Below are positions 3,594-17,196 of a stretch of DNA of 64,000 nt, piece by piece (the first letter of the stretch is position 1; each line of letters begins with the position of its first letter). The position numbers and the translations under genes are program-made. The DNA comes from Thermodesulfovibrionales bacterium (lineage in GTDB: Bacteria; Nitrospirota; Thermodesulfovibrionia; Thermodesulfovibrionales; UBA9159), in assembly GCA_035686305.1 (NCBI GenBank), contig DASRZP010000103.1, forward strand, positions 3,534 to 67,533, in the 5' to 3' direction. The notes under the pieces are model-generated. The model had not been told where the DNA came from. It did not search any database and was given only the letters and a program-made list of their open reading frames with translations.

Positions 3594-5555
3594 TCATTTC
3601 CAATCAGGACTCTTTAAGAAGTCCTTGAGGCGACGGGGATCGTCAATGGGATCATAGCACCTTCCCTTCCCGCATGGAAGGACATACCCTTTATCCTCGC
3701 CGTACCGGATATAGGCGTGGGGCCGGAAACATGAGCGGGCCGTGTCGGCAAGGGCGCTGTCAGGAGATGCTTCAACAGAGAGCACAACCGAACGGAAATA
3801 GGCATCGGCTGCGCAGTAGTAATACCCGGCGTGAATGCCAAGTTCCTTTGCCTTGAGGGAGAAGGCCCTCAAGGCCCTCAAGGCATACTCATGGTATGAC
3901 TCTTTTTGCGTCAATGCAGCGAGCTTGTCCATGACGATAATGGCCACGGAGTTTGCCGAAGGATGAGGGATATCCTCGACGGACCTCAGCCTTAATCCGA
4001 GAACTGCATCCTCGGAATCAAAAAAACCTCCGTCATTTTCACTCCAAAACTTTCTCATGCATGTCTCCATAAGGTTATCGGCGGCCTCGAGATACCGCGC
4101 ATCACCCGTTATTTCATATGCGCCGACCTGCGCTTCGATAAGATCGATGTAATCATTCAGGAATCCCTTGACGCCATCGGAGTGATAAACTTCATTCTTG
4201 ATAACGCGCCTCCCGGTGAGTCTGTCGAGACTCGTGAGTGCGAAGTCTTTCAGTGACCCTTCCCCGAGTATTCTCGATCCCTTCAGATAGGCGTTTATGA
4301 GCAATCCGTTCAGCGACGTGTAGATCGTCCTGTCAATGAAAGGCTCCTCTCTCTTCCCTCTTGCCGCAAGTAATTTTCTCTTCCCACGATCTATCATTCC
4401 GCGGATAACCCTTCCCTCCCTGCCGGTCATCTGAGCAATCTGATCGGGTTCCATCGAGACAAAGAGCACCTTCTTCGCACTGTCATGGTGCATCGATCCC
4501 CTGTCATGGAGGAGATGGAGGGTGAGGACCTCTCGTTCCTCGTCGTCAAGGACCTTTCTGAAATCGCCGGCAGTCCAGGTGAAATACCCTCCTTCGTCGT
4601 CAGGGGTGACATCAGCGTCTTGACTCGCGTAAAATCCTCCCTCGGGATCGGTGAGTACTTCCCTGACGAATCTGACGATGCCTTCCGCCACCTCTCTGAA
4701 CAGGATATCGCCAAAGATTGCGTAGGCATCGGCATAATTCCGCAGAAGCCAGGCATTATCATCGGCCATCTTCTCGAAGTGAGGGATGATCCATGCCTCA
4801 TCCGTGGAATACCGGTGGAAGCCGCCCCCGATCTGATCATGAAATCCGCCCTTTGCCATCGCTTCAAGCGTCTTCTTCACGGCGTAGGCGGCATGTTCAT
4901 CCTGCTGAAAAAACGATCTGCACATGAGCATTTCCGTTGCCCCGGGCATCGGGAATTTGGGAAGCTTTCCGAAACCGCCGTGTTCGGCATCGAAATAGGA
5001 AAGGACCTCTTTTCCGGCTTCGTCGATCATGAACTGACTGATGTCGGCTGAGACCGTGGATTGATGCTTCATAAAGTCCAGGAGGCTGTCGGAATAGTCG
5101 GAAACCTCCTTCCTCTTCCGTCGGTAAAGCTGACTCACGGCAGCCAGTATCTTCTTGAAACCCGGTTTTCCGAATCGGTCCTCGGGAGGAAAGTAGGTCC
5201 CTCCGAAGAAAGGCTTCTTATCAGAGGTCAAGAACACGCTCAAAGGCCAACCGCCGCCCTGTCCCATAGCCGCTACCGCCTGCTGGTATCTCCTGTCGAT
5301 ATCAGGCCTCTCATCCCTGTCGAGTTTTATATTAATGAATCCTTCATTCAGGGTCTTGATGATCTCTTCATTTTCGAAGCACTCCTTTGCCATGACATGA
5401 CACCAATGGCACCAGATGGCGCCTGTGCTGAGGAAAACCGGCTTGTCTTCCTGCTCCGCCCTCAGGAAGGCCTCCTCGCACCACGGATACCAGTCGACCT
5501 GCTGGTCAGCAGCATGCCTCAGGTAAGCAGCTTTCTCTCTTGACAGCCTGTTCAT
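3594..5555 (-). CDS. thioredoxin-domain protein of the YyaL/DUF255 family (N-terminal Trx-like plus alpha/alpha-toroid domain)
   Basis: 653 aa. The N-terminus (DWYPWCEEAFLRAEQEDKPVFLSTGAIWCHWCHVM) is the characteristic DUF255 thioredoxin-like motif. Confidence 0.8.
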   Translation of the reverse strand: MNRLSREKAAYLRHAADQQVDWYPWCEEAFLRAEQEDKPVFLSTGAIWCHWCHVMAKECFENEEIIKTLNEGFINIKLDRDERPDIDRRYQQAVAAMGQGGGWPLSVFLTSDKKPFFGGTYFPPEDRFGKPGFKKILAAVSQLYRRKRKEVSDYSDSLLDFMKHQSTVSADISQFMIDEAGKEVLSYFDAEHGGFGKLPKFPMPGATEMLMCRSFFQQDEHAAYAVKKTLEAMAKGGFHDQIGGGFHRYSTDEAWIIPHFEKMADDNAWLLRNYADAYAIFGDILFREVAEGIVRFVREVLTDPEGGFYASQDADVTPDDEGGYFTWTAGDFRKVLDDEEREVLTLHLLHDRGSMHHDSAKKVLFVSMEPDQIAQMTGREGRVIRGMIDRGKRKLLAARGKREEPFIDRTIYTSLNGLLINAYLKGSRILGEGSLKDFALTSLDRLTGRRVIKNEVYHSDGVKGFLNDYIDLIEAQVGAYEITGDARYLEAADNLMETCMRKFWSENDGGFFDSEDAVLGLRLRSVEDIPHPSANSVAIIVMDKLAALTQKESYHEYALRALRAFSLKAKELGIHAGYYYCAADAYFRSVVLSVEASPDSALADTARSCFRPHAYIRYGEDKGYVLPCGKGRCYDPIDDPRRLKDFLKSPDWK

Positions 5556-6061
5556 GCCCTCTCTCTGATCTTCTTCATGGTCTCTCTCAAGAACGCGGGA
5601 AGATCGGCAGGCTGTCTCGATGTGACGAGATTTCCATCGACCACAACCTCTCTATCCTCGTAAAACGCACCGGCAGCCTTCATCTCTTTGGCTACGGACC
5701 TGTAGCAGGTCGCGTGCCTGCCCTTCAGCAGTCCTGCGGTGATGAGTATCTGGGGGCCGTGGCAAATGGCGGAGACGGGTTTCTTCATCTCAAAGAACTG
5801 TTGTGCGATCCTGACGGCGTCCTTTTCCTTCCGTATGGTTTCGGGCGCCCTGCCCCCGGGGAGAATAAGGATACCGTAATCAGAAGGACCGACCTCCCCC
5901 AGGGTCTTGTCAATCTCCACTTCATACCCGTGTTTACCCCTTATCCGGCCTTTCTTCATCGAGACAATATCCACGGCGACACCCTCTTCCTTCAACCGGT
6001 AATAGGGGACAAGGAGTTCCGTGTCCTCAAAATCGTCAGCGCTGATGATCAATGCCTTCAT
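5552..6061 (-). CDS. DJ-1/PfpI family intracellular protease or deglycase
   Basis: The track ORF 5552..6199 has a non-homologous N-terminal extension. The likely start is Met47 (ATG at 6061, SD AAGGGG upstream). MKALIISADDFEDTELLVPYYRL and the nucleophile-elbow motif AICHGPQIL are PfpI-like. The stop overlaps the yyaL-like start. Confidence 0.85.
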   Translation of the reverse strand: MKALIISADDFEDTELLVPYYRLKEEGVAVDIVSMKKGRIRGKHGYEVEIDKTLGEVGPSDYGILILPGGRAPETIRKEKDAVRIAQQFFEMKKPVSAICHGPQILITAGLLKGRHATCYRSVAKEMKAAGAFYEDREVVVDGNLVTSRQPADLPAFLRETMKKIRERA

Positions 6062-6112
6062 AACAATCACCCCTTTCCTTATGAGTGCACCCTGGAGTCG
6101 CACAAAACCTTT

Positions 6113-6180
6113 CTTCTTCGGAAAGGCAGGTATGGCGGGCTTCGATCCATGCCCTACCACCGTTTGCAACATAAGGTTGC
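6113..6180 (-). repeat. dispersed non-coding element, copy A (internally deleted version of copies B and C)
   Basis: Shares an identical 18-mer (gggcttcgatccatgccc, 6137..6154) with copy B (25335..25352). It also shares the flanking ttgcaaC-N-taaggtt block and the terminal (c)ttcgg(g/a)aaggcagg block. The central ~140 nt of B and C is absent. Confidence 0.55.
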
Positions 6181-6304
6181 ATTTTGTTTCCCGAAACACA
6201 GAGACAGAGGAGGCGCATCAGGGAAGTGAAGTCCTCCGCCTGTGGGTCAGCACGACTGAAAGAGACTGAGAAGTTTTGATAGTGAGATATGGCGTTCCCT
6301 TCTG

Positions 6305-6817
6305 CTACCACACTTCCCCTGTCCAGATATAATCGTTCTCCTTCTTCTTCTCATGACAACGCAGGCATACCTCGACCTTCCCTGACCCACGGGCCTTGCC
6401 ATCAGCAGCATACATTACCCAGAACCAGTCACCGCCTGCGGGATGATATCCCTTTATTCTGTACATCACGGTGAGGGCATCAAATCTTTTATCAGAGGTA
6501 TAATTCTCCTGGACAATGATTGAGTCATAGGCCATACCTGTTCTGTTCTTGATGGAACGGTAGGCCTCATCGTTCACAAAGGTCGTGAGCAGCTTGCCAT
6601 GGGGCTCTGCGCCTTTGTAAAGCCTCCCTTTGCCCGGCCACAGCTGCCACGCCCTGTAAGGGTTGAAGCGAATAATGTAATCGTTCAGTCTTTCTGCGTC
6701 TGGCTCCGGCATCGGAACCTGAGTCTCCGATGGTATGATCTCATGGATCGCCTCTCCACCATTCACGCCGGACAGCACAGCCAGCATTACGAGTAAGGGA
6801 AAGGCAAGCCTTTTCAT
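6305..6817 (-). CDS. secreted cytochrome P460-like monoheme protein
   Basis: Signal peptide MKRLAFPLLVMLAVLSGVNG (start taken at Met6 of the track ORF). A single C-terminal CLRCH heme motif is preceded by GDWFWVMY, as I remember for the P460 family. The family assignment is from memory, not from a search. Confidence 0.55.
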   Translation of the reverse strand: MKRLAFPLLVMLAVLSGVNGGEAIHEIIPSETQVPMPEPDAERLNDYIIRFNPYRAWQLWPGKGRLYKGAEPHGKLLTTFVNDEAYRSIKNRTGMAYDSIIVQENYTSDKRFDALTVMYRIKGYHPAGGDWFWVMYAADGKARGSGKVEVCLRCHEKKKENDYIWTGEVW

Positions 6818-7040
6818 ACTGGAGGCTCCCATGAAACAACATCACTGACCTTCATTTTCGATCTCATATAAATCCTATCACAGCAGGGTGCGATGTCAAG
6901 GCTCACACCATGTCACCTCACGTTACCGGACGTTGCTCAAACGCTCACCTTTTGGATCTTCCTCATCACTGGTCATGGCTGTTCCTGAAAGATATTCTTG
7001 TTGTTTATAATGAGAGAGTCTTCCTTTCATTCGAGGTGGC

Positions 7041-7646
7041 ATGGCAAGAATAAAGGCAGTAATCTTTGATTTTGGCGGGGTCCTTGCAGAGGAAGGCTTC
7101 AGGACGGGGTTGACGGCCATCGCTGAAAAGAACCGTCTTAATCCCGATGATTTTTTCAAGACAGCCGAGGGCCTCATCTATGAAACCGGCTATGTCACGG
7201 GCCGCTGCGACGAATCCCACTTCTGGAATTCCCTCAGAGAGAAGAGCGGCATCACCGCAAGCGATGAAGAGCTCAGGGAAGAGATTCTGAAGAGGTTCAG
7301 GCTGAGGCCGGAGATGATGGAGGCGGCAGAAGACCTCAAGTCCTCGGGTCTTATTGTGGCGGTTCTGAGCGATCAGACAAATTGGCTTGAAGAGATCAAT
7401 AAACAGACGCCTTTCTCTGACTGCTTTGACTACATCTTCAATTCCTTCAGGACCGGAAAGTCAAAGAGAGATCCGTCTCTCTTCACTGATGTATCTTCAA
7501 CTATGGGCCTTCTGCCCGGCGAGATGCTCTTTGTTGACGACAACATCGAGAACATTAAACGGGCTTCAGGAGTCGGTTTGAAGACGATTCATTTCAGAAG
7601 CAGGGAGGAGTTTGAAAAAAGGCTCGCGGACCTTCGTCAAGACTAA
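7041..7646 (+). CDS. HAD-superfamily hydrolase
   Basis: Motif I is present at the N-terminus (VIFDFGGVL), and motif IV-like FVDDN near the C-terminus. Confidence 0.8.
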   Translation: MARIKAVIFDFGGVLAEEGFRTGLTAIAEKNRLNPDDFFKTAEGLIYETGYVTGRCDESHFWNSLREKSGITASDEELREEILKRFRLRPEMMEAAEDLKSSGLIVAVLSDQTNWLEEINKQTPFSDCFDYIFNSFRTGKSKRDPSLFTDVSSTMGLLPGEMLFVDDNIENIKRASGVGLKTIHFRSREEFEKRLADLRQD

Positions 7647-9039: not shown

Positions 9040-9414
9040 TCAATTCCCATATCTATGGATTCTATATCCAGCTTCTGCGAGAACGATAACGAAAGACTTC
9101 TCTGTCCTGATCAAGTCTTTCTCATAACCGATGATATCTATAATGTTCTTCACTATCCGCGCTATATTGATGAGACGATGCCTGAGCAGGATTACCTTAC
9201 CCCTTCCCCATAACGTTCCGAACTCCATGAGCCCGCCGAAATCTTTGTCGCCGGATAGGAGGATACGATCGTGTTTTATTGCATACTCCAGAACTCTCTC
9301 ATCACTGCTTCCGGCAAGACCGATCTCAGGCACATAAAGAAGATCATACCCTGCATTGCGCAGGCCTCTGACGATGTCGCTATGGACACTTTCATCAGCA
9401 AGGATTTTGATCAT
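9040..9414 (-). CDS. DUF5615-type PIN-like putative toxin
   Basis: 124 aa (MIKILADESV...DERVLEYAIKHDRILLSGDKDF), resembling the DUF5615/Mut7-C-like partner of DUF433 proteins. Its start overlaps the upstream stop (TAATG). Confidence 0.7.
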   Translation of the reverse strand: MIKILADESVHSDIVRGLRNAGYDLLYVPEIGLAGSSDERVLEYAIKHDRILLSGDKDFGGLMEFGTLWGRGKVILLRHRLINIARIVKNIIDIIGYEKDLIRTEKSFVIVLAEAGYRIHRYGN

Positions 9415-9653
9415 TATTTTCTGCCTGAAAACATCCTAACTTCTTCTCCCTGAAACTGCCTTGCGGCAAAATCAAGCGCGGCATCCAGTCCCGCCTTTGT
9501 CAGCGTCGGGTAACCCCGAAGAATATCTTCCTTAGACATCCCGGATGCGATATTCTGCAGTATCAATGCAACAGATATTCGTGTGCCTTTGACAATAGGC
9601 TTGCCGTTAAGGATTTTCTGGTCCGAAACAATCAATGATTGACGTGTTGCCAT
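9414..9653 (-). CDS. DUF433-family putative antitoxin
   Basis: The likely start is the ATG at 9653 (SD GGAAGGAGG), not the track start at 9701. ILNGKPIVKGTRISVALIL...GYPTLTKAGLDAAL is the DUF433 signature. Confidence 0.75.
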   Translation of the reverse strand: MATRQSLIVSDQKILNGKPIVKGTRISVALILQNIASGMSKEDILRGYPTLTKAGLDAALDFAARQFQGEEVRMFSGRK

Positions 9654-9657
9654 TTGT

Positions 9658-9798
9658 TTACCTCCTTCCACTGTCAGAACTGCCGATAGGATCCTTCCCA
9701 AGCTTTCTAATAGCGTTGCCTATCTGACGCTTCACAGGCGAGTCGAACTTCCTGATATCTCTTCTCACCCTGCGTGTATAGATAAGCCTGTATTTCAC
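9658..9798 (-). pseudogene. truncated RelE/ParE-family toxin remnant (46 codons)
   Basis: The GTG at 9798 overlaps the antitoxin stop (GTGA). The translation VKYRLIYTRRVRRDIRKFDSPVKRQIGNAIRKLGKDP matches the usual N-terminal half of RelE/ParE toxins. It then degenerates to IGSSDSGRR-stop, whose last codons form the SD of the DUF433 gene. Confidence 0.55.
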
Positions 9799-9992
9799 TC
9801 GCCGAAAATGTCCTTGTGTGTGTTGATCCTGCCGGCTTTATAATCAGCCCTGGCCTCTTTCACGCTCCTGAGATATTCTGGAGATGTCATGGCAAGCAGA
9901 TCTTCAATGAACGCATCTCTATCTCTTTTCTTCATCTTCTTGACAGCACCGATAATCGCGTCCGCCGAAACCGGAACTTTAACTGCTAACAT
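9795..9992 (-). CDS. small antitoxin-like protein (partner of the truncated RelE/ParE toxin)
   Basis: 65 aa with SD GAGGAGG upstream. Its position and 4-nt overlap with the toxin remnant support the call. The C-terminus (EYLRSVKEARADYKAGR) resembles antitoxins of RelE/ParE modules. Confidence 0.5.
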   Translation of the reverse strand: MLAVKVPVSADAIIGAVKKMKKRDRDAFIEDLLAMTSPEYLRSVKEARADYKAGRINTHKDIFGE

Positions 9993-10231
9993 ATTTCCTC
10001 CTCGTTTTTGTAAATTCTAACATTCCTTATTGACTTGAGGATATCGTGGTCTATTCATTTCGCCTGCCCTAATGTCTATATTCGGCATGAATTACTTTCC
10101 ATATCTCCTTGCAAGTATTATACATTCATAGGCCTATGTCGGACCTGCAAATCCGCTTCACATCACATCCCTCACACTTCCTAAGCCTCGGCAAAGCATT
10201 GTCGCGTATCGCCCGGCCAGCCTTGATAACC

Positions 10232-12880
10232 TCAGACTCCGTTTTTTTTCAACAACTTCTCGTCCACTAACTCACGGACTGCAGCGCCCGCGCCCTTATC
10301 GAGACTATAGATTTCAACAAGGTCGGCTGATCTCCCCGCAAGCTGCTGGTACCCCATAGCATAGATATGCAGTTGCGTGCTTGTCACGTCTTCCTCCTGT
10401 GCGCGATCCGTAGACTTGAAATCGATAATTATTACCTGCTTTGTATCCGTTCTACGGATGAGATCGATGCGCCCATGTACCACAATGCCTTCGGCTAATT
10501 TCAATTCAACAGTCTTTTCCGCAAATTCAATTTTGTCCAGCACATCCGAATTCTCTCTCAGGTACTTGCGCATCACAATATCCGCCTGAGTGCGCATATC
10601 TACAAGCAGCTTGGGCCACGCGTAAGGCAGATGAAGATGGTCGTCAAGTAATCGGGGAACGTCGTCGGGCTTCAGATACTTGCCATCCAGCGCACGCCTG
10701 TGCACCTCGGCAAGGCAGTCATGCAGAGATTTCCCATACCCGAGTTTCTCATGAAACCCAGGATTGAAACCATACATGTACCTGAGCTTGAATTGATAAG
10801 GGCACTGGAAGTAGTACTTCAGTTCGGCGAATGTCAAAGGTATCTCGATATCAGCCTTTGCTGCCTTGGGCTCGATCTTGGCAATTGATGAAGGAGAAGG
10901 CTCCCTCGTCAGCACAAACTCCGATGCTGTAAATTCACTGACAAACGACGATTGACGCGAATAGTGCCCCGATGTTGCTTCAGGTGCCCAAGTGCAATAG
11001 AGATGCTTCTTGCTTCTCGTAAGGGCGACATAAAAGAGCCGTCGCTCATCTTCGACCGACCCAAGGTAACGCTCCGCTCCCTTTACGGCAGTCGGCGGGA
11101 TCACATGCCACCACTGCCGGCCCCTTGCACTCGGCGTCGGGAATCTGTTCTTAACAAGGTTCGGCAGGAACACGACCGGGAACTCCATCCCCTTGGCCTG
11201 ATGGATCGTCATGATCTGCACCGCATCGGGCGTCACAAAAGCCGCGTCTTCCCAACCCTCAGGGTAATAATCAGCAGCCTGATGCCGTAGAAAGCCTGCG
11301 AAGGCTGCATAAAGACTCTCTGCACTGCTCTGCCAATGGATCTCCTCAAAATCCGTGATCACCTGGCTAAACTTTCCGAGATTGTAATAGACAAGTTCAC
11401 CCCGGTTGCGGTCATGTACGCCGCGCCCAGGTATCGTGTCCTCTCTCAGCTCAATAACCCCAAGAAAACCCTGAAATGTCTGCTGAATGGAATAAGTTCG
11501 GTTGATCAGGCGGTTCGGCCAGTCAGCTTTTTCAGCATCGAGCCACCCAATCGCCCTCTGGAGCTTTGCGTCCTCAATCCCAAGGTTCGCGGCCTGCCAT
11601 GCCTTCCTCAGTTCATCTCCGGTGATCTCACCATTCAGATAGTAGACAATTGCTCTGGCAGCCAGAACTTCTGCCGCGTCAAAGAGACCGGCCCCGCCTT
11701 TAATCACATAAGGGATATTTGCTCGCCTGAGTGCGTCAACGACAGGACCTGCGCTATTCTTAACGCACCGAAGGAGGATTGCGCAATCAGACCATGTAAG
11801 TCCTCTCGAGTGACCTTCTTCCGTAAACGGTACACCGCGCATGGAAAGAACCTTCCCGACAATCCACTCCGCCTCAGCCTGTGGAGAGTTCAACCGACGA
11901 CAAAGTATGTCACCGTAATCGAAAGGTTGTTTCTCACTGCTCTCCATTCTTTTCGGCAGCCGATTGCGGTTCCTCTCCGCAATTTGCCTAGCAGTTTCTA
12001 CAACCCCTTTGCTACTACGGAAATTTTTCGCAAGTGGAACTTGATGGACATCCCTGTATCTCTCCTGAAAACCCAGAATGTTCTGGATATCGCTTCCATT
12101 CCACTGATATATCGTCTGGTCGTCGTCACCGACTACACGCACTTCTGCCCCTAGTTGATAAAGAAGCACCACAAGTGCTTCCTGAAGGGGGTTTACATCC
12201 TGGTATTCGTCTACGATGAGATATTTGACTCTGCCGGCTATCTTTGCTCTCAACTCAGCGTCGCTCTGGAGAGCAGTCACCGCCTCGGTCAGTATCCGAC
12301 TATAGTCAAGATAGCTTTTTCTATCGAGAAGCTGATTATATTTTTGAAGAGCTCCAGCAATTGGATGTGTCCCAAGCGCCTTATCGTCAATGAATGACTC
12401 TCTTATGATCGAGAGGCATCGTTGATACAGGCGAGAGTCCTGCCAACGCTTCAGAGATTTTCCATCGTGGGTGGCAAGGTCCGTCAGCCCTGACTCTTTT
12501 GAATGGCGGTGTATCAGAAGTCGCTGCTGTACATCGTTAAGAACTCTGTATTTCAGGAATCGATACTGGTATGTCTGAAGGAGATCCAAACAGAAACCGT
12601 GAATCGTGCCGACGAACATTTCGGCGAGGCCGGTACTTTGGCCCAACTGCTGGCGACAGAGTGTGTGTATCCGATCCTTGAGTTCCCCGGCGGCTTTTTC
12701 GGTGAAAGTAAACGCAATGATGTTTGGAGGGCCGATGCCTTCTTCAGCCTTGTCTTTAAGAAGCTTAACGACATGCTGTGCGAGCACGCGTGTCTTTCCA
12801 GAACCCGCGCACGCAATCACTTGAAGATTACCGTCCAAATGGTTGATTGCCTCAAGCTGCCGCTCTGTATAGTCCATCAT
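10232..12880 (-). CDS. UvrD/Rep-type SF1 helicase fused to a C-terminal PD-(D/E)XK (RecB/Cas4-like) nuclease domain
   Basis: 882 aa. It has Walker A (ACAGSGKTRVL), motif II (LIVDEYQDVN), TIHQAKGMEFPVVF and YVALTRSKKHLY. The C-terminal nuclease motifs are FQCPYQFKLRY, GRIDLI, IIDFKS and QLHIYAMGY. Its ATG overlaps the radC stop (ATGA, 12877..12880). Confidence 0.85.
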   Translation of the reverse strand: MMDYTERQLEAINHLDGNLQVIACAGSGKTRVLAQHVVKLLKDKAEEGIGPPNIIAFTFTEKAAGELKDRIHTLCRQQLGQSTGLAEMFVGTIHGFCLDLLQTYQYRFLKYRVLNDVQQRLLIHRHSKESGLTDLATHDGKSLKRWQDSRLYQRCLSIIRESFIDDKALGTHPIAGALQKYNQLLDRKSYLDYSRILTEAVTALQSDAELRAKIAGRVKYLIVDEYQDVNPLQEALVVLLYQLGAEVRVVGDDDQTIYQWNGSDIQNILGFQERYRDVHQVPLAKNFRSSKGVVETARQIAERNRNRLPKRMESSEKQPFDYGDILCRRLNSPQAEAEWIVGKVLSMRGVPFTEEGHSRGLTWSDCAILLRCVKNSAGPVVDALRRANIPYVIKGGAGLFDAAEVLAARAIVYYLNGEITGDELRKAWQAANLGIEDAKLQRAIGWLDAEKADWPNRLINRTYSIQQTFQGFLGVIELREDTIPGRGVHDRNRGELVYYNLGKFSQVITDFEEIHWQSSAESLYAAFAGFLRHQAADYYPEGWEDAAFVTPDAVQIMTIHQAKGMEFPVVFLPNLVKNRFPTPSARGRQWWHVIPPTAVKGAERYLGSVEDERRLFYVALTRSKKHLYCTWAPEATSGHYSRQSSFVSEFTASEFVLTREPSPSSIAKIEPKAAKADIEIPLTFAELKYYFQCPYQFKLRYMYGFNPGFHEKLGYGKSLHDCLAEVHRRALDGKYLKPDDVPRLLDDHLHLPYAWPKLLVDMRTQADIVMRKYLRENSDVLDKIEFAEKTVELKLAEGIVVHGRIDLIRRTDTKQVIIIDFKSTDRAQEEDVTSTQLHIYAMGYQQLAGRSADLVEIYSLDKGAGAAVRELVDEKLLKKNGV

Positions 12881-13593
12881 GCACCTGCCTCATAAACCGG
12901 CAGTGCTCCGTCCCGAGAAAAGCTGTAAATCTGCTCGCCTGCCACAATAATATGATCCACCACCTGGACATTGATTCCACCAAGGGCCTGGAACAGATTG
13001 CGAGTTAGCTTGTGGTCGTGGGTAGATGGTTTGGCGCTTCCCGCGGGATGGTTATGCGCAAGAATAACGGAGGCCGCCTTGTGCCTCACTGCCGCCTCTG
13101 CAACATGACGGGGGTGTACAAGGGCATCCTTCACTGTGCCCTCGCTTATCAACGCTGGATAAAGGACTCGAAGCTGAGAGTCAAGACAAATCACATAGAA
13201 TACTTCTTCGGAACGTCCAGCCATGAGGGGCACAAGATACTCGGCTGCCGACTCAGAATTGTTGAGAGGCTTTCGGGAGTGGTTAACACGATCGTGAAAG
13301 TATCGCCGAGTGACCTGAGGGATCATTGAAAGAAAGATAGCGGCATTTTCTCCGATACCTTCAACAGAGGCCAAATCCTTTGGATCGGCCTCAAAGACAG
13401 CTGAAAGACTGCCGAAACGCTGCATCAGCCTGTGCGCTAAAGGGTTTGTATCAAGCCGTGGGATCGTCTGGAATAAGAGAAGCTCAAGAACCTGATGATC
13501 TTCGAAGCTATCCAAGCCTTCTTTGAGGAAACGCATTCTTAACCGCTTACGGTGTCCTGCATGCATTTGTTCCCTAGAAGGAGCCTTGGCCAT
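12877..13593 (-). CDS. radC: RadC-family JAB/MPN-domain protein
   Basis: 238 aa. The N-terminal HhH region (HRKRLRMRFLKEGLDSFEDHQVLELLLF...GIGENAA) and an intact JAMM motif (LAHNHPAGSAKPSTHD) are both present. Confidence 0.85.
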   Translation of the reverse strand: MAKAPSREQMHAGHRKRLRMRFLKEGLDSFEDHQVLELLLFQTIPRLDTNPLAHRLMQRFGSLSAVFEADPKDLASVEGIGENAAIFLSMIPQVTRRYFHDRVNHSRKPLNNSESAAEYLVPLMAGRSEEVFYVICLDSQLRVLYPALISEGTVKDALVHPRHVAEAAVRHKAASVILAHNHPAGSAKPSTHDHKLTRNLFQALGGINVQVVDHIIVAGEQIYSFSRDGALPVYEAGA

Positions 13594-13612: not shown

Positions 13613-13765
13613 TCAATGAGCGTCTGGGTCATACTCGGATCTTTTTGGTTTGGGCTTTGAGGTATCGTAAGAGGCGAGACCTACAGGGACGGCATTTTTA
13701 CCGGTCTCGGCTTCGTGCCGGTAGGAATCAACATCTTCTTTACCTGAATCCTTCTTCTTGGCCAT
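13613..13765 (-). pseudogene. possible N-terminal remnant of an adenine DNA methyltransferase (type III-like family), 50 codons
   Basis: A short ORF below the track cutoff: MAKKKDSGKEDVDSYRHEAETGKNAVPVGLASYDTSKPKPKRSEYDPDAH-stop. It resembles, from memory, the conserved N-terminus of a methylase family (K-rich start, xYxHxxxRxNxP..GL, then Y..DP.LDPQLVW). It stops inside the DP motif, 20 nt before radC. The assignment is from memory only. Confidence 0.35.
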
Positions 13766-13799
13766 AAACCCTATCCCTTCTCAAACACACGATTTCGCG

Positions 13800-14084
13800 T
13801 TAAACCACTGCCCTTTCAGGTCTCATCCATGCGGGCAGAGGTTCTCCAGTTGCCTCATGATAAAGTGTCTCAGGTGCGATATCCAGCCCGTCAGGCCAGC
13901 ATAATGTTCCGATTTCCTTGTTTACATAGAACTGCTTAAAGTATTCAATATCGGAAAAACGGCTGAAAACACCGCCCTTATATCTATACTTGCTCAAATC
14001 AATAATCCCCTTCTTGCCTTTTTCGAAAACAAGTTCAAGCTTGTATTCTTCAATATATCTTGCTTCTAAAACGTCATAGTACAT
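13800..14084 (-). CDS. DUF2442-family protein
   Basis: 94 aa (LELVFEKGKKGIIDLSKY...WPDGLDIAPETLY), typical of DUF2442. It lies 10 nt downstream of a DUF4160 gene, the usual pairing. Confidence 0.7.
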   Translation of the reverse strand: MYYDVLEARYIEEYKLELVFEKGKKGIIDLSKYRYKGGVFSRFSDIEYFKQFYVNKEIGTLCWPDGLDIAPETLYHEATGEPLPAWMRPERAVV

Positions 14085-14094
14085 TGTGACCTCC

Positions 14095-14355
14095 TTATTT
14101 TAGGGGCTCAATTGGGAACAAGGGTTTCTGATCTTTAGCCAACTCCCAATCTTTCAATAGTTCTTCTTTATGGATATCTGCCCATTCTATAACAAGCCCT
14201 AATGCCTTCGGCGGCAAATATCCTTCCAGTATCGCAAAGTCCTCAATTCTTATCGCTATCGAATAACTTCCGTATCTCGCATGGAAGTGAGGAGGGTTGT
14301 GGTCGTCAAAAAACATTGCTATGACTATACCAAAGAACCTGCTTATCTCAGGCAT
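14095..14355 (-). CDS. DUF4160-family protein
   Basis: 86 aa. MPEISRFFGIVIAMFFDDHNPPHFHARYG is the DUF4160 signature. Confidence 0.7.
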   Translation of the reverse strand: MPEISRFFGIVIAMFFDDHNPPHFHARYGSYSIAIRIEDFAILEGYLPPKALGLVIEWADIHKEELLKDWELAKDQKPLFPIEPLK

Positions 14356-14628: not shown

Positions 14629-15279
14629 TCAGGCCACTCTCTTGACGAAGATCTCTTTGGCGATATCGGGGTCTAGGGCGACGGTGGTCTCATCAACCTG
14701 GATAACGTAGGAGGGGGTCTTCTGGATCAGTTTCAATATGCTCCCGGCAGCTATGCCTATGGAACCCAGTCTGTTGAGCCTTGCTGCCTCAGAGGGGACG
14801 ATGAATACGATCCTGCCTCTTGCACCGACCTCAAAGGTCGAGAGCCTCATGACGACCGGTGTCACCTCAACCTTATACTTCTTGCAGCATTCGCCCTTCG
14901 GAATAGGCTTTCCATGGGGACATGACGGTGGATGACCGAGGAACGTACAGACGCTGTCCGTCAATTCTTCGCTCAAAATATGCTCCATTTTGCAGGCGTC
15001 AGACTCTACCTGGTCGCTCTTGAGATCAAAGACATCTGTGAAGAGCCTTTCAGCCAGCCGGTGTCTCCTCGTCAAACCCCGGGCCAAGGTACGGCCTCTC
15101 TCAGAGAGCGAGACGTTAGCACCCTCCAGACTGATGAACCCTTCACGCTTCAATGCCTCCTGAAGCTCCTCGAAATCCGGGTCATCCGAACTCAGCCTGA
15201 AGCGCTCTAACTCAGGCCGGCCTTCCTCGTCAAGGAGCCAGAGGAGTTCAAGGGCCTCGTCGATCCGCTCTCTGTCCAC
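14629..15279 (-). CDS. DtxR/MntR-family metal-dependent transcriptional regulator with a C-terminal FeoA/SH3-like domain
   Basis: Has the wHTH plus dimerisation region (LSERGRTLARGLTRRHRLAERLFTDVF), metal-site residues (MEH...CPHG) and a C-terminal FeoA-like segment. Confidence 0.8.
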   Translation of the reverse strand: MDRERIDEALELLWLLDEEGRPELERFRLSSDDPDFEELQEALKREGFISLEGANVSLSERGRTLARGLTRRHRLAERLFTDVFDLKSDQVESDACKMEHILSEELTDSVCTFLGHPPSCPHGKPIPKGECCKKYKVEVTPVVMRLSTFEVGARGRIVFIVPSEAARLNRLGSIGIAAGSILKLIQKTPSYVIQVDETTVALDPDIAKEIFVKRVA

Positions 15280-15906
15280 CTACCCTCCTCCGCATGCAAA
15301 GGGAAGACTGAGGGACATGACGTGCTCAAAGCTCTTCCTGTGGATGGGACAGGGTCCTCTATTCACAATCCTCTTTCTATGGTCCTTTGTTGGGTAGCCC
15401 TTGTGCCGTGAAAAACCATACTCAGGATAGAGAACGTCGTAGTGTTCCATGATCCTGTCCCGCACGACCTTGGCGATGATAGATGCTGCGGCGATAGAAG
15501 CACTCCGTGATTCCCCTTTTATGAGCGACATCTGCCGTATATCCAACGTCTTCAACTGAACAGCGTCGATGAGGAGAAGATCGGGTTCTACAGAAAGGTC
15601 TTTTACGGCCTGCTTCATGGCAAGCTGCGTTGCCTTCAAAATGTTCATCCTGTCTATGACGTCGGCCTCCACAACTCCGACCCCTATGTCAAGGCAGCTG
15701 CAGAAGACTTCCCAGAAAAGGGACTCTCGCTCCCTTTCCGGGACCTTCTTTGAGTCCCTGAGACCGTCGATCCTCTCCGAAGGATCGATCACAACAGCAG
15801 CAGCGACGACCGGCCCGGCAAGGGGACCTCTCCCCGCTTCATCGATACCGGCGATCCTCTGAAATCCTCCGTCCCTGAGGGTTTCATCATACCGGTATAA
15901 ATCCAT
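15280..15906 (-). CDS. rnhB: ribonuclease HII
   Basis: IAGIDEAGRGPLAGPVVAAAV is the RNase HII active-site motif. 208 aa. Confidence 0.9.
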   Translation of the reverse strand: MDLYRYDETLRDGGFQRIAGIDEAGRGPLAGPVVAAAVVIDPSERIDGLRDSKKVPERERESLFWEVFCSCLDIGVGVVEADVIDRMNILKATQLAMKQAVKDLSVEPDLLLIDAVQLKTLDIRQMSLIKGESRSASIAAASIIAKVVRDRIMEHYDVLYPEYGFSRHKGYPTKDHRKRIVNRGPCPIHRKSFEHVMSLSLPFACGGG

Positions 15907-16275
15907 CTAGGCCTCTTTGGGAACGGCGATTCTCTCTCTTTCCTTCTCTTTTATCTTGGCTGCCTTACCCTTCTTTGTTCTGATATAGTAAAGCTTTGCC
16001 CTCCTGACGGAGCCCTTCCGTATCACGTCAATCCGCTCCAGTGACGGCGAATGGAGAGGGAATATCCTTTCCACGCCGATCCCGAAGGAGACCTTTCTGA
16101 CCATGAACGTACCCCTGACGCCTGTTCCCCGTCTCGCGATAACAACGCCCTCAAAGGGCTGGATCCTTTCCTTGTCTCCCTCAACAACCTTGACGAAAAC
16201 CTTCACCGTATCGCCAACCCGAAAAGCAGGAACGTCCTTCCTGTATCCTTCTTCAACGGCACTCACGAGATTCAT
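15907..16275 (-). CDS. rplS: 50S ribosomal protein L19
   Basis: [33 protein letters not shown] is the canonical L19 sequence. The trmD-rplS synteny is present. Confidence 0.95.
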
Positions 16276-17008
16276 CTTCTTCCTCCTTAATCTCTGAAAG
16301 TAATGTATGGTCTTCCCGCGTAAGCGAGGCCTTTTGGAGAAGATCGGGCCTCATCCTCAATGTGCCCTTCAACGCCTCCTTCCTTCTCCACCTCGCAATG
16401 TCCTTATGATTACCCGACAGGAGCACATCAGGGACCTTCATCCCCCGGTACTCCGGCGGCCTGGTGTAATGGGGGTAATCGAGGATACCCCACGAGAAGG
16501 ACTCCTCCACGACGGAACGTTCATCACCTAATGCTCCCGGCAGCAGCCTGACGAGAGCATCTATTATAACCAAAGCCGGCAGTTCCCCGCCAGTCAAAAT
16601 ATAATCTCCTATCGACAGCTCAAGGTCAACGAGTCTCTCTCTTACCCGTTCATCGATTGCCTCATACCTTCCGCATAAAAAAAGGAGTCTCCTCCTCTCC
16701 TGTGACAGGGCAAGAGCCGCCTCCTGATGGAAGGGTCTTCCCTTGGGCGTCAGCATGATCGTGCAGGTCTCGACTCCGTCTGCCTTTACGGACTCCACAG
16801 CGTCAAAAAAGGGTCCTGGCTTCATGACCATCCCCGATCCTCCTCCGTAAGGATGATCATCGACGGTCCTGTGCTTGTCAGTCGTAAAATCCCTGAGGTT
16901 GTGCACCTTCAGATCGATGATTCCTTTCTGGATCGCCCTCTTCAGAATGCTCTCGGAGAAGTAGGCATGGAAGATGCCGGGGAATATGGTGATGATCTCG
17001 CATCTCAT
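16253..17008 (-). CDS. trmD: tRNA (guanine37-N1)-methyltransferase
   Basis: The start is taken at Met12 of the track ORF (ATG at 17008): [25 protein letters not shown] and [10 protein letters not shown] are TrmD motifs. Confidence 0.9.
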
Positions 17009-17196
17009 GACGCACCGTGTATACTTTTTTGAGGCTTTCAAAAAGCTTAATAGAATCGCTCTCTTTTGTCAACGCACCGTCGCTTCCCTGTTCCATGGGA
17101 GGAGTGAGTCGGCAGGGATTGGAGAGTTTTTCGCCCTCAGACGTATCAACGGGGACAATGGACAAGGAAGGGAATGTTTTGTATGATTACAATAGG

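What the first reader, a model, noticed from the sequence alone, without database searches (positions are those of the whole stretch)
10232..13593. Translationally coupled RadC (JAB) + UvrD-helicase/PD-(D/E)XK-nuclease pair inside a toxin-antitoxin island: candidate undescribed DNA-targeting or defence module
What the sequence shows:
- The radC stop (TGA) and the ATG of the 882-aa gene overlap as ATGA at 12877..12880, so the two are almost certainly co-translated.
- The large protein has a complete SF1 helicase motif set (GSGKT, DEYQD, QAKGMEFP, ALTRSKK).
- It also has a complete RecB/Cas4-type nuclease core (CPYQFKLRY, GRIDLI, IIDFKS, QLHIY).
- RadC retains an intact JAMM metal site (HNHPAGSAKPSTHD).
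- The pair is flanked on both sides by TA-like modules and gene remnants (9040..9992 and 13613..14355).

Established knowledge: SF1 helicase plus nuclease is a recurring architecture in anti-phage systems (Gabija GajB, Nhi and similar), and such systems cluster with TA modules. RadC-like JAB proteins are also recurrent on mobile elements, and their biochemical role is unresolved.

Inference: I know of no named system that pairs a full-length RadC with a helicase-nuclease, so this may be a distinct two-gene system. It could instead be a repair cassette.
Basis: partly seen in the sequence, partly recalled or inferred. Interest (0 to 1): 0.7.

Follow-up and report, generated by a model that had tools for sequence, protein, structure and literature searches.

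The report
Decayed RadC–helicase-nuclease restriction cassette remnant
The radC plus helicase-nuclease pair is real, but it is the worn-down front half of a four-gene restriction-modification operon (radC, UvrD-Cas4 helicase-nuclease, Mod, Res); the helicase-nuclease family is already described, while the recurring tight link to RadC seems to be new and gives a way to test what RadC does.

Summary
The two ORFs, the ATGA overlap, all quoted motifs and the flanking TA modules are present. However, the "882-aa" gene is a frameshifted gene of about 917 aa. An A8 run (10242..10249) puts the last 36 codons out of frame, including three of the four invariant Fe-S cysteines.

[quoted passage not shown] In my census of 76 de-duplicated loci (75 besides the window), a Mod-cluster MTase, usually with Res, lies downstream in 29 of 50 evaluable loci.

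A full-length RadC sits immediately upstream (4-nt overlap to a gap of about 22 nt) in 10 distinct loci. All of them fall in one helicase clade. The closest homologue (78%) is a clean RadC–HelNuc–Mod–Res operon.

The window keeps only the first six codons of mod (MPNIDI, 10088..10071). Mod and Res are deleted, and TA genes follow.

The RadC is the lineage's canonical radC. It is 83–97% identical to RadCs that could be checked only in part; the three examined sit in housekeeping contexts without a helicase.

So this is not a stand-alone two-gene system. It is a decaying remnant of a known kind of system, with a previously unreported RadC linkage.

The parts
12877..13593 (-). radC: full-length canonical RadC (N-terminal HhH/UPF0758_N plus C-terminal JAB domain with HNHPAGSAKPSTHD)
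   Evidence: Pfam RadC 7.8e-39. NCBIfam PRK00024 equivalog scores 192.5 against a cutoff of 180. It is 83-97% identical to many RadCs labelled Nitrospirota.
12877..12880 (-). ATGA stop/start overlap between radC and the helicase-nuclease
   Evidence: Read directly from the sequence. Junctions in 9 other paired loci are a possible 4-nt overlap or gaps of about 8-22 nt, several with a GGAG-like motif.
10232..12880 (-). Helicase-nuclease ORF as it stands (882 aa): UvrD-like SF1 helicase plus the N-terminal part of a Cas4-like PD-(D/E)XK domain
   Evidence: Family alignment A1 has 67% mean column identity.
10242..10249 (-). A8 homopolymer run that causes the frameshift (the intact reading needs A7)
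   Evidence: Removing one A gives a 917-aa protein that aligns end to end with homologues. The run is not conserved in homologues, whose A-runs are 1-6 at this site.
10126..10241 (-). Out-of-frame 3' end of the helicase-nuclease gene, encoding the CxxCx5C Fe-S ligands
   Evidence: The repaired domain matches PDDEXK_1 over positions 2-247 of 247 (89 bits) and passes the Cas_Cas4 gathering score, 28.1 against 22.7. DNA homology to L174 runs through to 10120.
10071..10088 (-). Scar of the deleted Type III mod gene: ATGCCGAATATAGACATT, encoding MPNIDI
   Evidence: It lies about 35 nt after the helicase-nuclease stop (41 nt in L174). It is 16/18 nt and 6/6 aa identical to the mod start in L174. MPNIDIT[KR]PELIWPGKYD is the conserved Mod N-terminus. 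Homology breaks after it.
9658..9992 (-). 65-aa ORF with no family match (antitoxin-like by position only) plus a 46-aa fragment with a weak ParE/RelE-like match, occupying the place of mod and res
   Evidence: for the ORFs; no Pfam family for the 65-aa ORF; ParE-like_toxin match for the fragment is only E 0.18, covering profile positions 2-34 of 87, well below threshold.
9040..9701 (-). DUF433 / DUF5615 (PIN-like) TA-like pair
   Evidence: Pfam 2.2e-20 and 2.2e-18.
13800..14355 (-). DUF4160 / DUF2442 TA-like pair upstream of radC
   Evidence: Pfam 5.1e-23 and 1.2e-16.
13613..13765 (-). 50-aa ORF directly upstream of radC, with no family match
   Evidence: Searches found no hit. It is called as a gene in L170.

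Best explanation
The locus is the decayed 5' half of a four-gene operon: radC, a UvrD-Cas4 helicase-nuclease, Type III mod and Type III res.

Shown:
- The helicase-nuclease belongs to the UvrD-Cas4 fusion family, whose commonest partner is a Type III R-M system encoded directly downstream.
- In one clade of that family, a full-length canonical RadC is encoded immediately upstream and is probably co-transcribed.
- In this window mod and res have been deleted, leaving six codons of mod, and TA genes occupy their place.
- The helicase-nuclease carries a +1A frameshift that removes three of the four Fe-S cysteines of its Cas4-like nuclease.

Inferred:
- In intact cassettes, Mod2Res makes a single double-strand break in unmethylated invader DNA. 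The SF1 helicase / Cas4-like nuclease then loads on the ends and unwinds and degrades the DNA, acting as a private RecBCD/AddAB-like activity so that one cut becomes irreversible.
- RadC (an HhH DNA-binding domain plus a JAB metal site) is co-expressed as a DNA-end co-factor. It could be a second nuclease or could remove end-bound proteins.
- In this genome the defence function is probably lost, and only radC remains under selection.
For: Family and Type III context:
- Pfam and NCBIfam domain calls, with Cas4 membership once the frame is repaired.
- Hudaiberdiev 2017 describes the same fusion family and its Mod/Res context.
- In my census, a Mod-cluster MTase lies within 4 genes downstream in 11/25 loci (>=57% identity) and 18/25 loci (<57%).
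- For L104, Mod hits PADLOC MTase_III at 3e-117 and Res hits REase_III at 3e-19.

RadC linkage:
- RadC is at -1 on the same strand in 7/22 evaluable loci of the >=57% clade, plus L116 (partial), L174 and the window. It is at -1 in 0/25 loci outside that clade.
- Junctions are all about 22 nt or less, against 75-203 nt downstream of three unpaired radC genes.
- Genes upstream of radC are unrelated between loci.
- RadC and helicase divergences correlate, r=0.75.
- All paired loci fall in one helicase clade.

Full cassette and decay:
- The closest homologue (78%) is RadC238-HelNuc916-Mod617-Res917.
- No Mod or Res was found in 64 kb.
- The frameshift is, and is shared by a contig differing at 2 positions and by a JGI fragment.

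Independent RadC-helicase links:
- RadC-DinG fusions are reported in PMC3239186 and PMC11981726.
Against: - No experiment shows that UvrD-Cas4 proteins contribute to restriction or that RadC interacts with them.
- Many cassettes in the same clade lack an adjacent radC. In L083/L090 the helicase-nuclease heads the operon after a 329-nt divergent gap, so RadC in cis is not required.
- The window's RadC is closest to unpaired RadCs, and L174's RadC is equidistant from paired and unpaired ones. There is therefore no RadC subfamily dedicated to the cassette.
- L172 has an unrelated TA plus Type III R-M island downstream of radC, which fits a positional hotspot.
- The frameshift could still be a shared assembly error, or be partly bypassed by transcriptional slippage on the A8 run.
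- Independence of the JGI and ENA records could not be established.
Confidence: 0.7

Rival explanations
1. Positional hitch-hiking. radC is a conserved, constitutively expressed core gene whose 3' flank is a recurrent landing site for defence islands. The helicase-nuclease/R-M cassette docks there and uses radC's promoter, but RadC has no functional role in it.
For: - Three close RadC orthologues (83-90%) are unpaired, with different genes downstream.
- L172 has an unrelated PIN TA plus Type III R-M plus zeta-toxin island right after radC.
- RadC similarity follows lineage rather than pairing status.
- About two thirds of cassettes in the same clade have no radC upstream.
- In L081 the helicase-nuclease is joined just as tightly (shared end and start coordinate, 1-nt overlap) to a RES toxin gene.
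Against: - Ten distinct loci diverged to 54-78% identity all keep radC exactly at -1 with gaps of about 22 nt or less, while everything upstream differs.
- The pairing is confined to one helicase clade, including its basal branch.
- RadC-helicase gene fusions exist independently in the DinG family.
Confidence: 0.3
2. One reading: RadC plus helicase-nuclease is a self-sufficient two-gene defence or DNA-targeting system that does not need an R-M partner.
For: - Some loci have the pair without Mod/Res within reach. In L001 and the window neither gene is seen; in L137 and L162 the pair is followed by other defence genes, although L162 has an MTase five genes downstream.
- Hudaiberdiev 2017 notes that uvrD-cas4 can be stand-alone.
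Against: - The window carries a mod scar, so it had Mod/Res and lost them.
- Its helicase-nuclease is frameshifted.
- The nearest homologue and L088, L104 and L122 are complete RadC-HelNuc-(cargo)-Mod-Res operons.
- A nuclease-helicase with no self/non-self discriminator would be hazardous.
- PADLOC has no such system.
Confidence: 0.07
3. A housekeeping DNA-repair cassette: RadC plus an AddA/RecB-like helicase-nuclease acting in double-strand-break repair, unrelated to defence.
For: - The domain architecture resembles AddA/RecB.
- RadC has historically been annotated as a repair protein.
- Hudaiberdiev 2017 suggests partial redundancy with RecB.
Against: - Scores are far below every repair-equivalog cutoff: addA 157 against 707.65, recB 141.7 against 696, pcrA 258 against 911.
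- There is no AddB/RecC/RecD partner nearby.
- Distribution is patchy across phyla and sits in defence islands.
- Many close RadC-bearing relatives appear to lack the gene.
- The gene is frameshifted here.
- radC mutants are not repair-deficient (Attaiech 2008, as cited).
Confidence: 0.05
4. The frameshift is not biological decay. It is either an assembly or sequencing error in a homopolymer, or a phase-variable or slippage-corrected site, and the helicase-nuclease is still made at full length.
For: - The frameshift lies in an A8 run, and the downstream frame is perfectly preserved with no further lesions.
- Homopolymers are prone to error and to slippage (established knowledge).
Against: - The same A8 is seen in a contig that differs from the window at 2 positions and in a JGI-derived protein.
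- The tract is absent from homologues, so it is not a conserved programmed site.
- The R-M partner is deleted, so relaxed selection is expected.
- The correct frame requires a +1 shift, not the usual -1.
Confidence: 0.2

Closest known systems
UvrD-Cas4 fusion helicase-nucleases associated with Type III R-M (Hudaiberdiev et al. 2017, PMC5704561)
   Same: Same architecture: an SF1 UvrD-like helicase plus a C-terminal pfam12705 Cas4-like nuclease with four cysteines. Same dominant neighbourhood: Mod and Res, sometimes with a Schlafen-like ATPase, found here as the DUF4062/HATPase_c_4/Fic_C genes in L104 and L122. The second reported context, Dcm/Vsr/Type II REase, is seen in the plasmid relatives.
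   Different: That paper does not mention RadC. Here a clade of the family has radC fused into the operon upstream. The window copy is frameshifted and has lost Mod and Res.
Type III R-M systems with a third, helicase-like ATPase gene 5' of mod (Murray et al. 2021, PMC8259958; Eco86II, BspHIV)
   Same: Same operon logic: an extra ATP-dependent motor gene sits immediately 5' of mod-res and is conserved by guilt-by-association in hundreds of genomes. Its function is unknown, and it is not required for methylation or cleavage in vitro.
   Different: That extra protein is described as SF2-like with no nuclease motif. The protein here is SF1 UvrD-like with a Cas4-like nuclease, and a RadC gene precedes it.
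AddAB / RecBCD / AdnAB end-resection helicase-nucleases
   Same: An SF1A UvrD-like motor fused to a RecB-family nuclease. As in AddB, the Fe-S cluster is ligated by one cysteine before and three cysteines after the nuclease core. It probably works in a similar way on DNA ends.
   Different: It scores far below the equivalog cutoffs. It is a single polypeptide with no AddB/RecC/RecD partner, and it sits in a defence-island context.
RadC-like DinG helicases and RadC/ArdB or RadC-ArdC antirestriction modules on mobile elements (PMC3239186, PMC11981726, PMC12458937)
   Same: RadC-type JAB domains repeatedly partner helicases and restriction-related functions.
   Different: Those cases are domain fusions to SF2 DinG helicases, or short RadC-like proteins on mobile elements that are thought to counter restriction. 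Here a full-length chromosomal RadC is a separate gene placed upstream of an SF1 helicase-nuclease on the restriction side.
Gabija GajB and Nhi
   Same: GajB shares the UvrD-like core, with PADLOC GajB models scoring up to 1e-62. Nhi also combines a nuclease with an SF1 helicase.
   Different: There is no GajA (OLD/TOPRIM) partner in the window, and GajB has no Cas4 domain. Nhi's domain order and helicase subfamily differ (from my own knowledge, not tested), and it did not appear among the 25 PADLOC hits shown out of 57.

Membership tests
UvrD-Cas4 fusion family (pfam12705 branch of Hudaiberdiev 2017) | N-terminal SF1 UvrD-like helicase with a complete motif set | tested here: met
   PF00580 2.1e-57 and PF13361 4.9e-35. 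GSGKT, DEYQD and the other motifs are invariant in A1.
UvrD-Cas4 fusion family (pfam12705 branch of Hudaiberdiev 2017) | C-terminal Cas4-like PD-(D/E)XK domain with four Fe-S cysteines | tested here: inconclusive
   The catalytic motifs and C693 are in frame, but the CxxCx5C is encoded after the A8 frameshift. Once repaired, the domain matches PDDEXK_1 at full length (89 bits), passes Cas_Cas4 at 28.1 against 22.7, and hits PADLOC Cas4 at 4e-12.
UvrD-Cas4 fusion family (pfam12705 branch of Hudaiberdiev 2017) | Encoded next to Type III Mod and Res | tested here: inconclusive
   Relatives: a Mod-cluster MTase lies downstream in 29/50 evaluable loci, and the closest homologue has Mod and Res. In the window only a six-codon mod scar remains, with no Mod or Res in 64 kb.
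Canonical full-length RadC (NCBIfam PRK00024 / TIGR00608) | Whole-protein score above the curated equivalog cutoff | tested here: met
   192.5 against 180 for PRK00024, and 171.4 against 133.85 for TIGR00608.
Canonical full-length RadC (NCBIfam PRK00024 / TIGR00608) | Intact JAMM metal site (HxH...S..D) and an N-terminal HhH region | tested here: met
   HNHPAGSAKPSTHD is present. PF04002 scores 7.8e-39. The HhH and UPF0758_N hits fall just below their gathering scores, 26.4 against 27.1 and 23.4 against 27.
Type III restriction-modification system | Mod (beta-class N6/N4 MTase) plus Res (SF2 ATPase with endonuclease) in one operon | tested here: not met
   Absent from the window. Present in relatives: in L104, MTase_III at 3e-117 and REase_III at 3e-19.
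Gabija | GajA (ATPase plus TOPRIM/OLD nuclease) encoded next to a GajB helicase | tested here: not met
   Only the helicase core matches GajB models. No OLD/TOPRIM gene is adjacent in the window.
AddA / RecB / PcrA / UvrD / Rep orthologues | Score above the NCBIfam equivalog cutoff | tested here: not met
   pcrA 258 against 911, uvrD 235 against 1144, addA 157 against 708, recB 142 against 696.

The most novel reading that the evidence does not exclude
Canonical RadC is a working partner of SF1 and SF2 helicase-nucleases at DNA ends. In the radC-uvrD/cas4-mod-res operon it would supply a second catalytic activity, such as cutting the other strand or removing end-bound or covalently attached proteins. 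That activity would let the helicase-nuclease destroy DNA cut by the Type III enzyme. If so, a biochemical role would be assigned to the nearly universal but functionally orphan RadC protein, and a four-component class of Type III restriction systems would be defined.
Probability: 0.25. Interest if true: 0.75.

Novelty: new variant of a known kind. Interest (0 to 1): 0.5.

Why it matters
RadC is found in most bacteria, and its function has been unresolved for decades (the literature cited here includes 'RadC, a misleading name?'). A conserved, probably co-translated radC–helicase-nuclease–mod–res operon places RadC in a setting with an easy read-out: restriction of phage or plasmid DNA and the fate of the cut DNA. 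It also adds a second candidate accessory gene to the little-studied Type III systems that carry extra motor proteins.

For this genome the message is more modest. The locus is a decaying defence remnant, and it should not be annotated as an active system.

Tried and rejected
- **Generic alignment scan.** A genome-contig scan with the full-length alignment mostly returned ordinary UvrD/PcrA, because the chosen patterns were helicase motifs. Only about 15 loci were family members. I then switched to a nuclease-domain alignment.
- **L172 as the mirror-image decay product.** I tested whether it was the same cassette with the helicase-nuclease lost and Mod/Res kept. This was rejected: its Mod and Res are only 38-42% and 24% identical to the cassette's, and no helicase remnant exists.
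- **The 50-aa ORF upstream of radC.** I suspected an MTase N-terminal remnant. There is no support from the Mod set, Pfam or plasmids.
- **The JGI contig behind P0076.** The look-up, meant to test independence of the frameshift, found no record.
- **Viral contigs.** Only 2 hits, so there is no evidence that the family is phage-borne.
- **PADLOC on RadC.** Neither the window's RadC nor L104's gave a hit.
- **Programmed frameshift.** Considered unlikely, because the A-run is lineage-specific and the shift needed is +1.
- **Structure prediction.** Not run. No multimer option is available, and the sequence evidence was sufficient for the questions asked.


Full report
**1. The observation**

Both ORFs exist as stated: radC at 12877..13593(-), 238 aa, and a large ORF at 10232..12880(-), 882 aa. 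The junction reads ...GGT GCA TGA TGG..., so the radC stop and the helicase ATG overlap as ATGA.

Pfam finds UvrD-helicase, UvrD_C and PDDEXK_1 in the large protein. It finds RadC plus weak HhH/UPF0758_N signals in the small one. NCBIfam places the small protein above the equivalog cutoff for canonical full-length RadC, at 192.5 against 180.

The flanks are TA-like: DUF4160/DUF2442 upstream and DUF433/DUF5615 downstream. There is also a 65-aa ORF with no family match, antitoxin-like by position only, and a 46-aa fragment with a weak, sub-threshold ParE-like match.

**2. The large gene is frameshifted**

The closest 120 homologues are about 916 aa, not 882. In alignment they continue for about 35 residues beyond the window protein. 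They end in a CxxCx5C whose three cysteines, together with C693 (the C of CPYQF), are invariant. This is the Cas4/AddB-type Fe-S ligand set.

In the window an A8 run (10242..10249) shifts the frame. The next frame reads KKTESEVIKAGRAIRDNALPRLRKCEGCDVKRICRSDIGL* and reaches a stop at 10126. Deleting one A gives a 917-aa protein that is colinear with its homologues.

With the frame repaired, the nuclease domain matches PDDEXK_1 end to end, at 89 bits against 67 bits truncated. It passes the Cas_Cas4 gathering score and hits PADLOC Cas4 models.

The same truncation occurs in an ENA contig that differs from the window at 2 of 14,690 bases, and in a JGI protein fragment. I could not establish whether those records are independent of each other. 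The A-run is absent from homologues. I therefore read it as a lineage-specific A7 to A8 slip rather than a programmed site.

**3. What the helicase-nuclease is**

It is not an orthologue of UvrD, PcrA, Rep, AddA or RecB, because all of these score far below their cutoffs. PADLOC matches it only through the generic helicase core, to GajB and DRT helicase models. No solved structure of the fusion exists.

The family was described by Hudaiberdiev et al. 2017 as the largest branch of pfam12705: a monophyletic UvrD-Cas4 fusion. Its commonest neighbourhood is Type III Mod and Res, sometimes with Schlafen-like ATPases. A second context contains Dcm and Vsr. The authors proposed an ancillary role in defence. 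RadC is not mentioned in that paper.

**4. Neighbourhood census**

I fetched loci from genomes, from metagenomes and viral contigs using a nuclease-domain alignment, and by exact look-ups. I called genes, located the helicase-nuclease, de-duplicated at 97% identity to 76 loci including the window, and clustered the neighbours.

- **Mod and Res.** The two largest neighbour clusters are a Mod-like MTase and a Res-like protein, downstream on the same strand. The Pfam labels come from look-up annotations. For L104, Mod hits PADLOC MTase_III at 3e-117 and Res hits REase_III at 3e-19. A Mod-cluster MTase lies within four genes in 11/25 evaluable loci with >=57% identity to the window protein, and in 18/25 with <57%. 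In a few loci the MTase is short or paired with another enzyme type, as in L087.
- **Cargo.** Other defence genes are often inserted between the helicase-nuclease and Mod. These include IetAS, a DUF4062/HATPase_c_4/Fic_C protein, a PD-Lambda-2_B-like protein, a HigB-like toxin and a ThsA-macro protein.
- **Plasmids.** Distant plasmid relatives sit beside Dcm, Type II REase and Vsr genes.

**5. The RadC link**

The third largest neighbour cluster is RadC. It is always at -1 on the same strand. It occurs in 7/22 upstream-evaluable loci of the >=57% clade, plus L116 (partial), L174 and the window. It occurs in 0/25 loci outside that clade.

Junctions range from a 4-nt overlap in the window (possibly also L088) to gaps of about 8-22 nt, several with a GGAG-like motif. 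The three unpaired radC genes examined have 75-203 nt downstream. Genes upstream of radC are unrelated between loci.

On a neighbour-joining tree of the helicase, all paired loci fall in one clade, including its basal branch, and are interspersed with unpaired ones. RadC and helicase divergences correlate across pairs, r=0.75, although these pairwise comparisons are not independent.

The complete forms are:
- RadC-HelNuc-Mod-Res in L174/L175, which carry the window's closest homologue at 78%.
- RadC-HelNuc-(Schlafen-like ATPase)-Mod-Res in L104 and L122.
- RadC-HelNuc-IetA-IetS-Mod-Res in L088.

**6. The window is a remnant**

DNA homology to L174 runs from 13530 to 10120. About 35 nt after the true stop, the window retains ATGCCGAATATAGACATT (MPNIDI, 10088..10071). 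This is 16/18 nt and 6/6 aa identical to the start of mod, whose conserved N-terminus is MPNIDIT[KR]PELIWPGKYD. Homology then ends and the TA genes follow. No Mod or Res, and no other remnant of them, is detectable anywhere in the 64 kb.

Deletion of the R-M partner followed by a disabling frameshift in the helicase-nuclease is what would be expected if the latter depends on the former. That dependence is an inference.

**7. Which RadC is this?**

RadC has about 60 homologues at >=80% identity, several labelled Nitrospirota. The helicase-nuclease has none above 82% apart from its own fragment. Only one contig length is shared between the two hit lists, which suggests few of these RadCs are paired. 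That is a rough proxy, and most RadC contigs are too short to check.

The three close RadCs I examined are unpaired:
- radC followed by purB and purL (L171, 90%).
- nusB, then radC, then glycosyltransferases (L173, 83%).
- radC, then a PIN TA pair, then an unrelated Type III R-M and a zeta toxin (L172, 85%).

L174's RadC is about equally distant from the window's RadC and from the unpaired ones. The partner is therefore the lineage's ordinary radC, not a cassette-specific paralogue. This keeps a positional explanation alive, in which radC's 3' flank is a landing site and a source of transcription.

Three observations argue against pure coincidence:
- The arrangement persists with tight junctions across loci only 54-78% identical.
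- It is restricted to one clade of the helicase family.
- RadC-DinG helicase fusions exist independently, and they led Iyer et al. to propose that the RadC JAB domain may act as a nuclease.

RadC-like proteins also accompany ArdB and ArdC antirestriction modules on mobile elements.

**8. Mechanism**

Shown: the operon structure, the domain content and the decay state.

Inferred from established knowledge of Type III enzymes and of AddAB/RecBCD: Mod2Res introduces a single double-strand break in unmethylated DNA. The UvrD-like motor with its Cas4-like nuclease then enters at the ends and degrades the DNA. RadC, which has an HhH domain and a JAB metal site, assists at the ends. It could act as a second nuclease or remove proteins that block the ends.

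A truncated protein lacking three Fe-S ligands is expected to have an unstable or inactive nuclease domain, by analogy with AddB and Dna2 as summarised in PMC11981726. A small amount of full-length protein made by slippage on the A8 run cannot be excluded.

**9. Verdict**

The interpretation as an undescribed two-gene system is only partly supported. The helicase-nuclease family and its R-M association are already known. The pair is half of a four-gene operon, and this copy is degenerate.

What appears to be new, as far as the searched literature and PADLOC show, is the recurrent and tightly coupled placement of canonical radC at the head of UvrD-Cas4/Type III R-M operons. That is a new variant of a known kind. 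It is moderately interesting because it offers a tractable assay for RadC function.

Noticed in passing
window 10071..10088 (-) and 9658..9798 (-): A six-codon scar of a deleted Type III mod gene (MPNIDI) lies right after the helicase-nuclease. A 46-aa fragment with a weak, sub-threshold ParE/RelE-like match overlaps the DUF433 start. Together they point to at least two separate deletion or insertion events in about 500 bp.
   Followed up: partly
window 13613..13765 (-): A 50-aa lysine-rich ORF directly upstream of radC ends in ...SEYDPDAH. It reminded me of MTase N-termini, but there is no support from Pfam, from the Mod proteins of related loci, or from plasmid tblastn. It remains unexplained.
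   Followed up: partly
L088 3856-7188; L100, L085, L091; L104 10738-12249; L122 6383-7969; L137 10701-12254; L162 6573-8614: The gap between the helicase-nuclease and mod is a hotspot for embedded defence cargo. The cargo includes IetA/IetS, a DUF4062-HATPase_c_4-Fic_C (Schlafen-like) protein that also hits pAgo-associated PADLOC models, a PD-Lambda-2_B-like HTH protein with a HigB-like partner, and a ThsA-macro protein.
   Followed up: partly
L172 7001-14246: A close RadC orthologue (85%) is followed by a PIN TA pair, a different Type III Mod (504 aa) and Res (882 aa), and a zeta-toxin-like gene. A GIY-YIG-like remnant (…YVGVTNDLIRRVYEHK…) appears in the 800-nt gap between mod and res. This suggests radC's 3' flank is a defence-island site in this lineage.
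   Followed up: partly
L081/L082 4866-6001: In the 76%-identical homologue, the gene joined to the helicase-nuclease (shared end/start coordinate, 1-nt overlap) is a RES-domain toxin with its Xre-like antitoxin, not RadC. An intein-containing ribonucleotide reductase lies further upstream.
   Followed up: no
L087 8883-10639 and 11259-14754: Here the helicase-nuclease sits next to a short N6_N4 MTase and a SmaI-family Type II enzyme. GmrSD lies upstream and phage tail and lysis genes lie downstream, so the family also pairs with Type II systems near a prophage.
   Followed up: no
L168 (IMG/VR UViG_3300031991_000072) 4608-7343 and downstream: One of only two viral-collection hits carries HelNuc-Mod-Res on a contig classed as viral. 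This could be a prophage- or satellite-borne copy.
   Followed up: no
window 14629..17041 (-): Core genes trmD, rplS and rnhB, plus a DtxR/FeoA-type repressor, lie immediately upstream of the TA/radC block. The variable region is therefore embedded in a housekeeping neighbourhood, not in an obvious mobile element. No integrase or tRNA was looked for.
   Followed up: no
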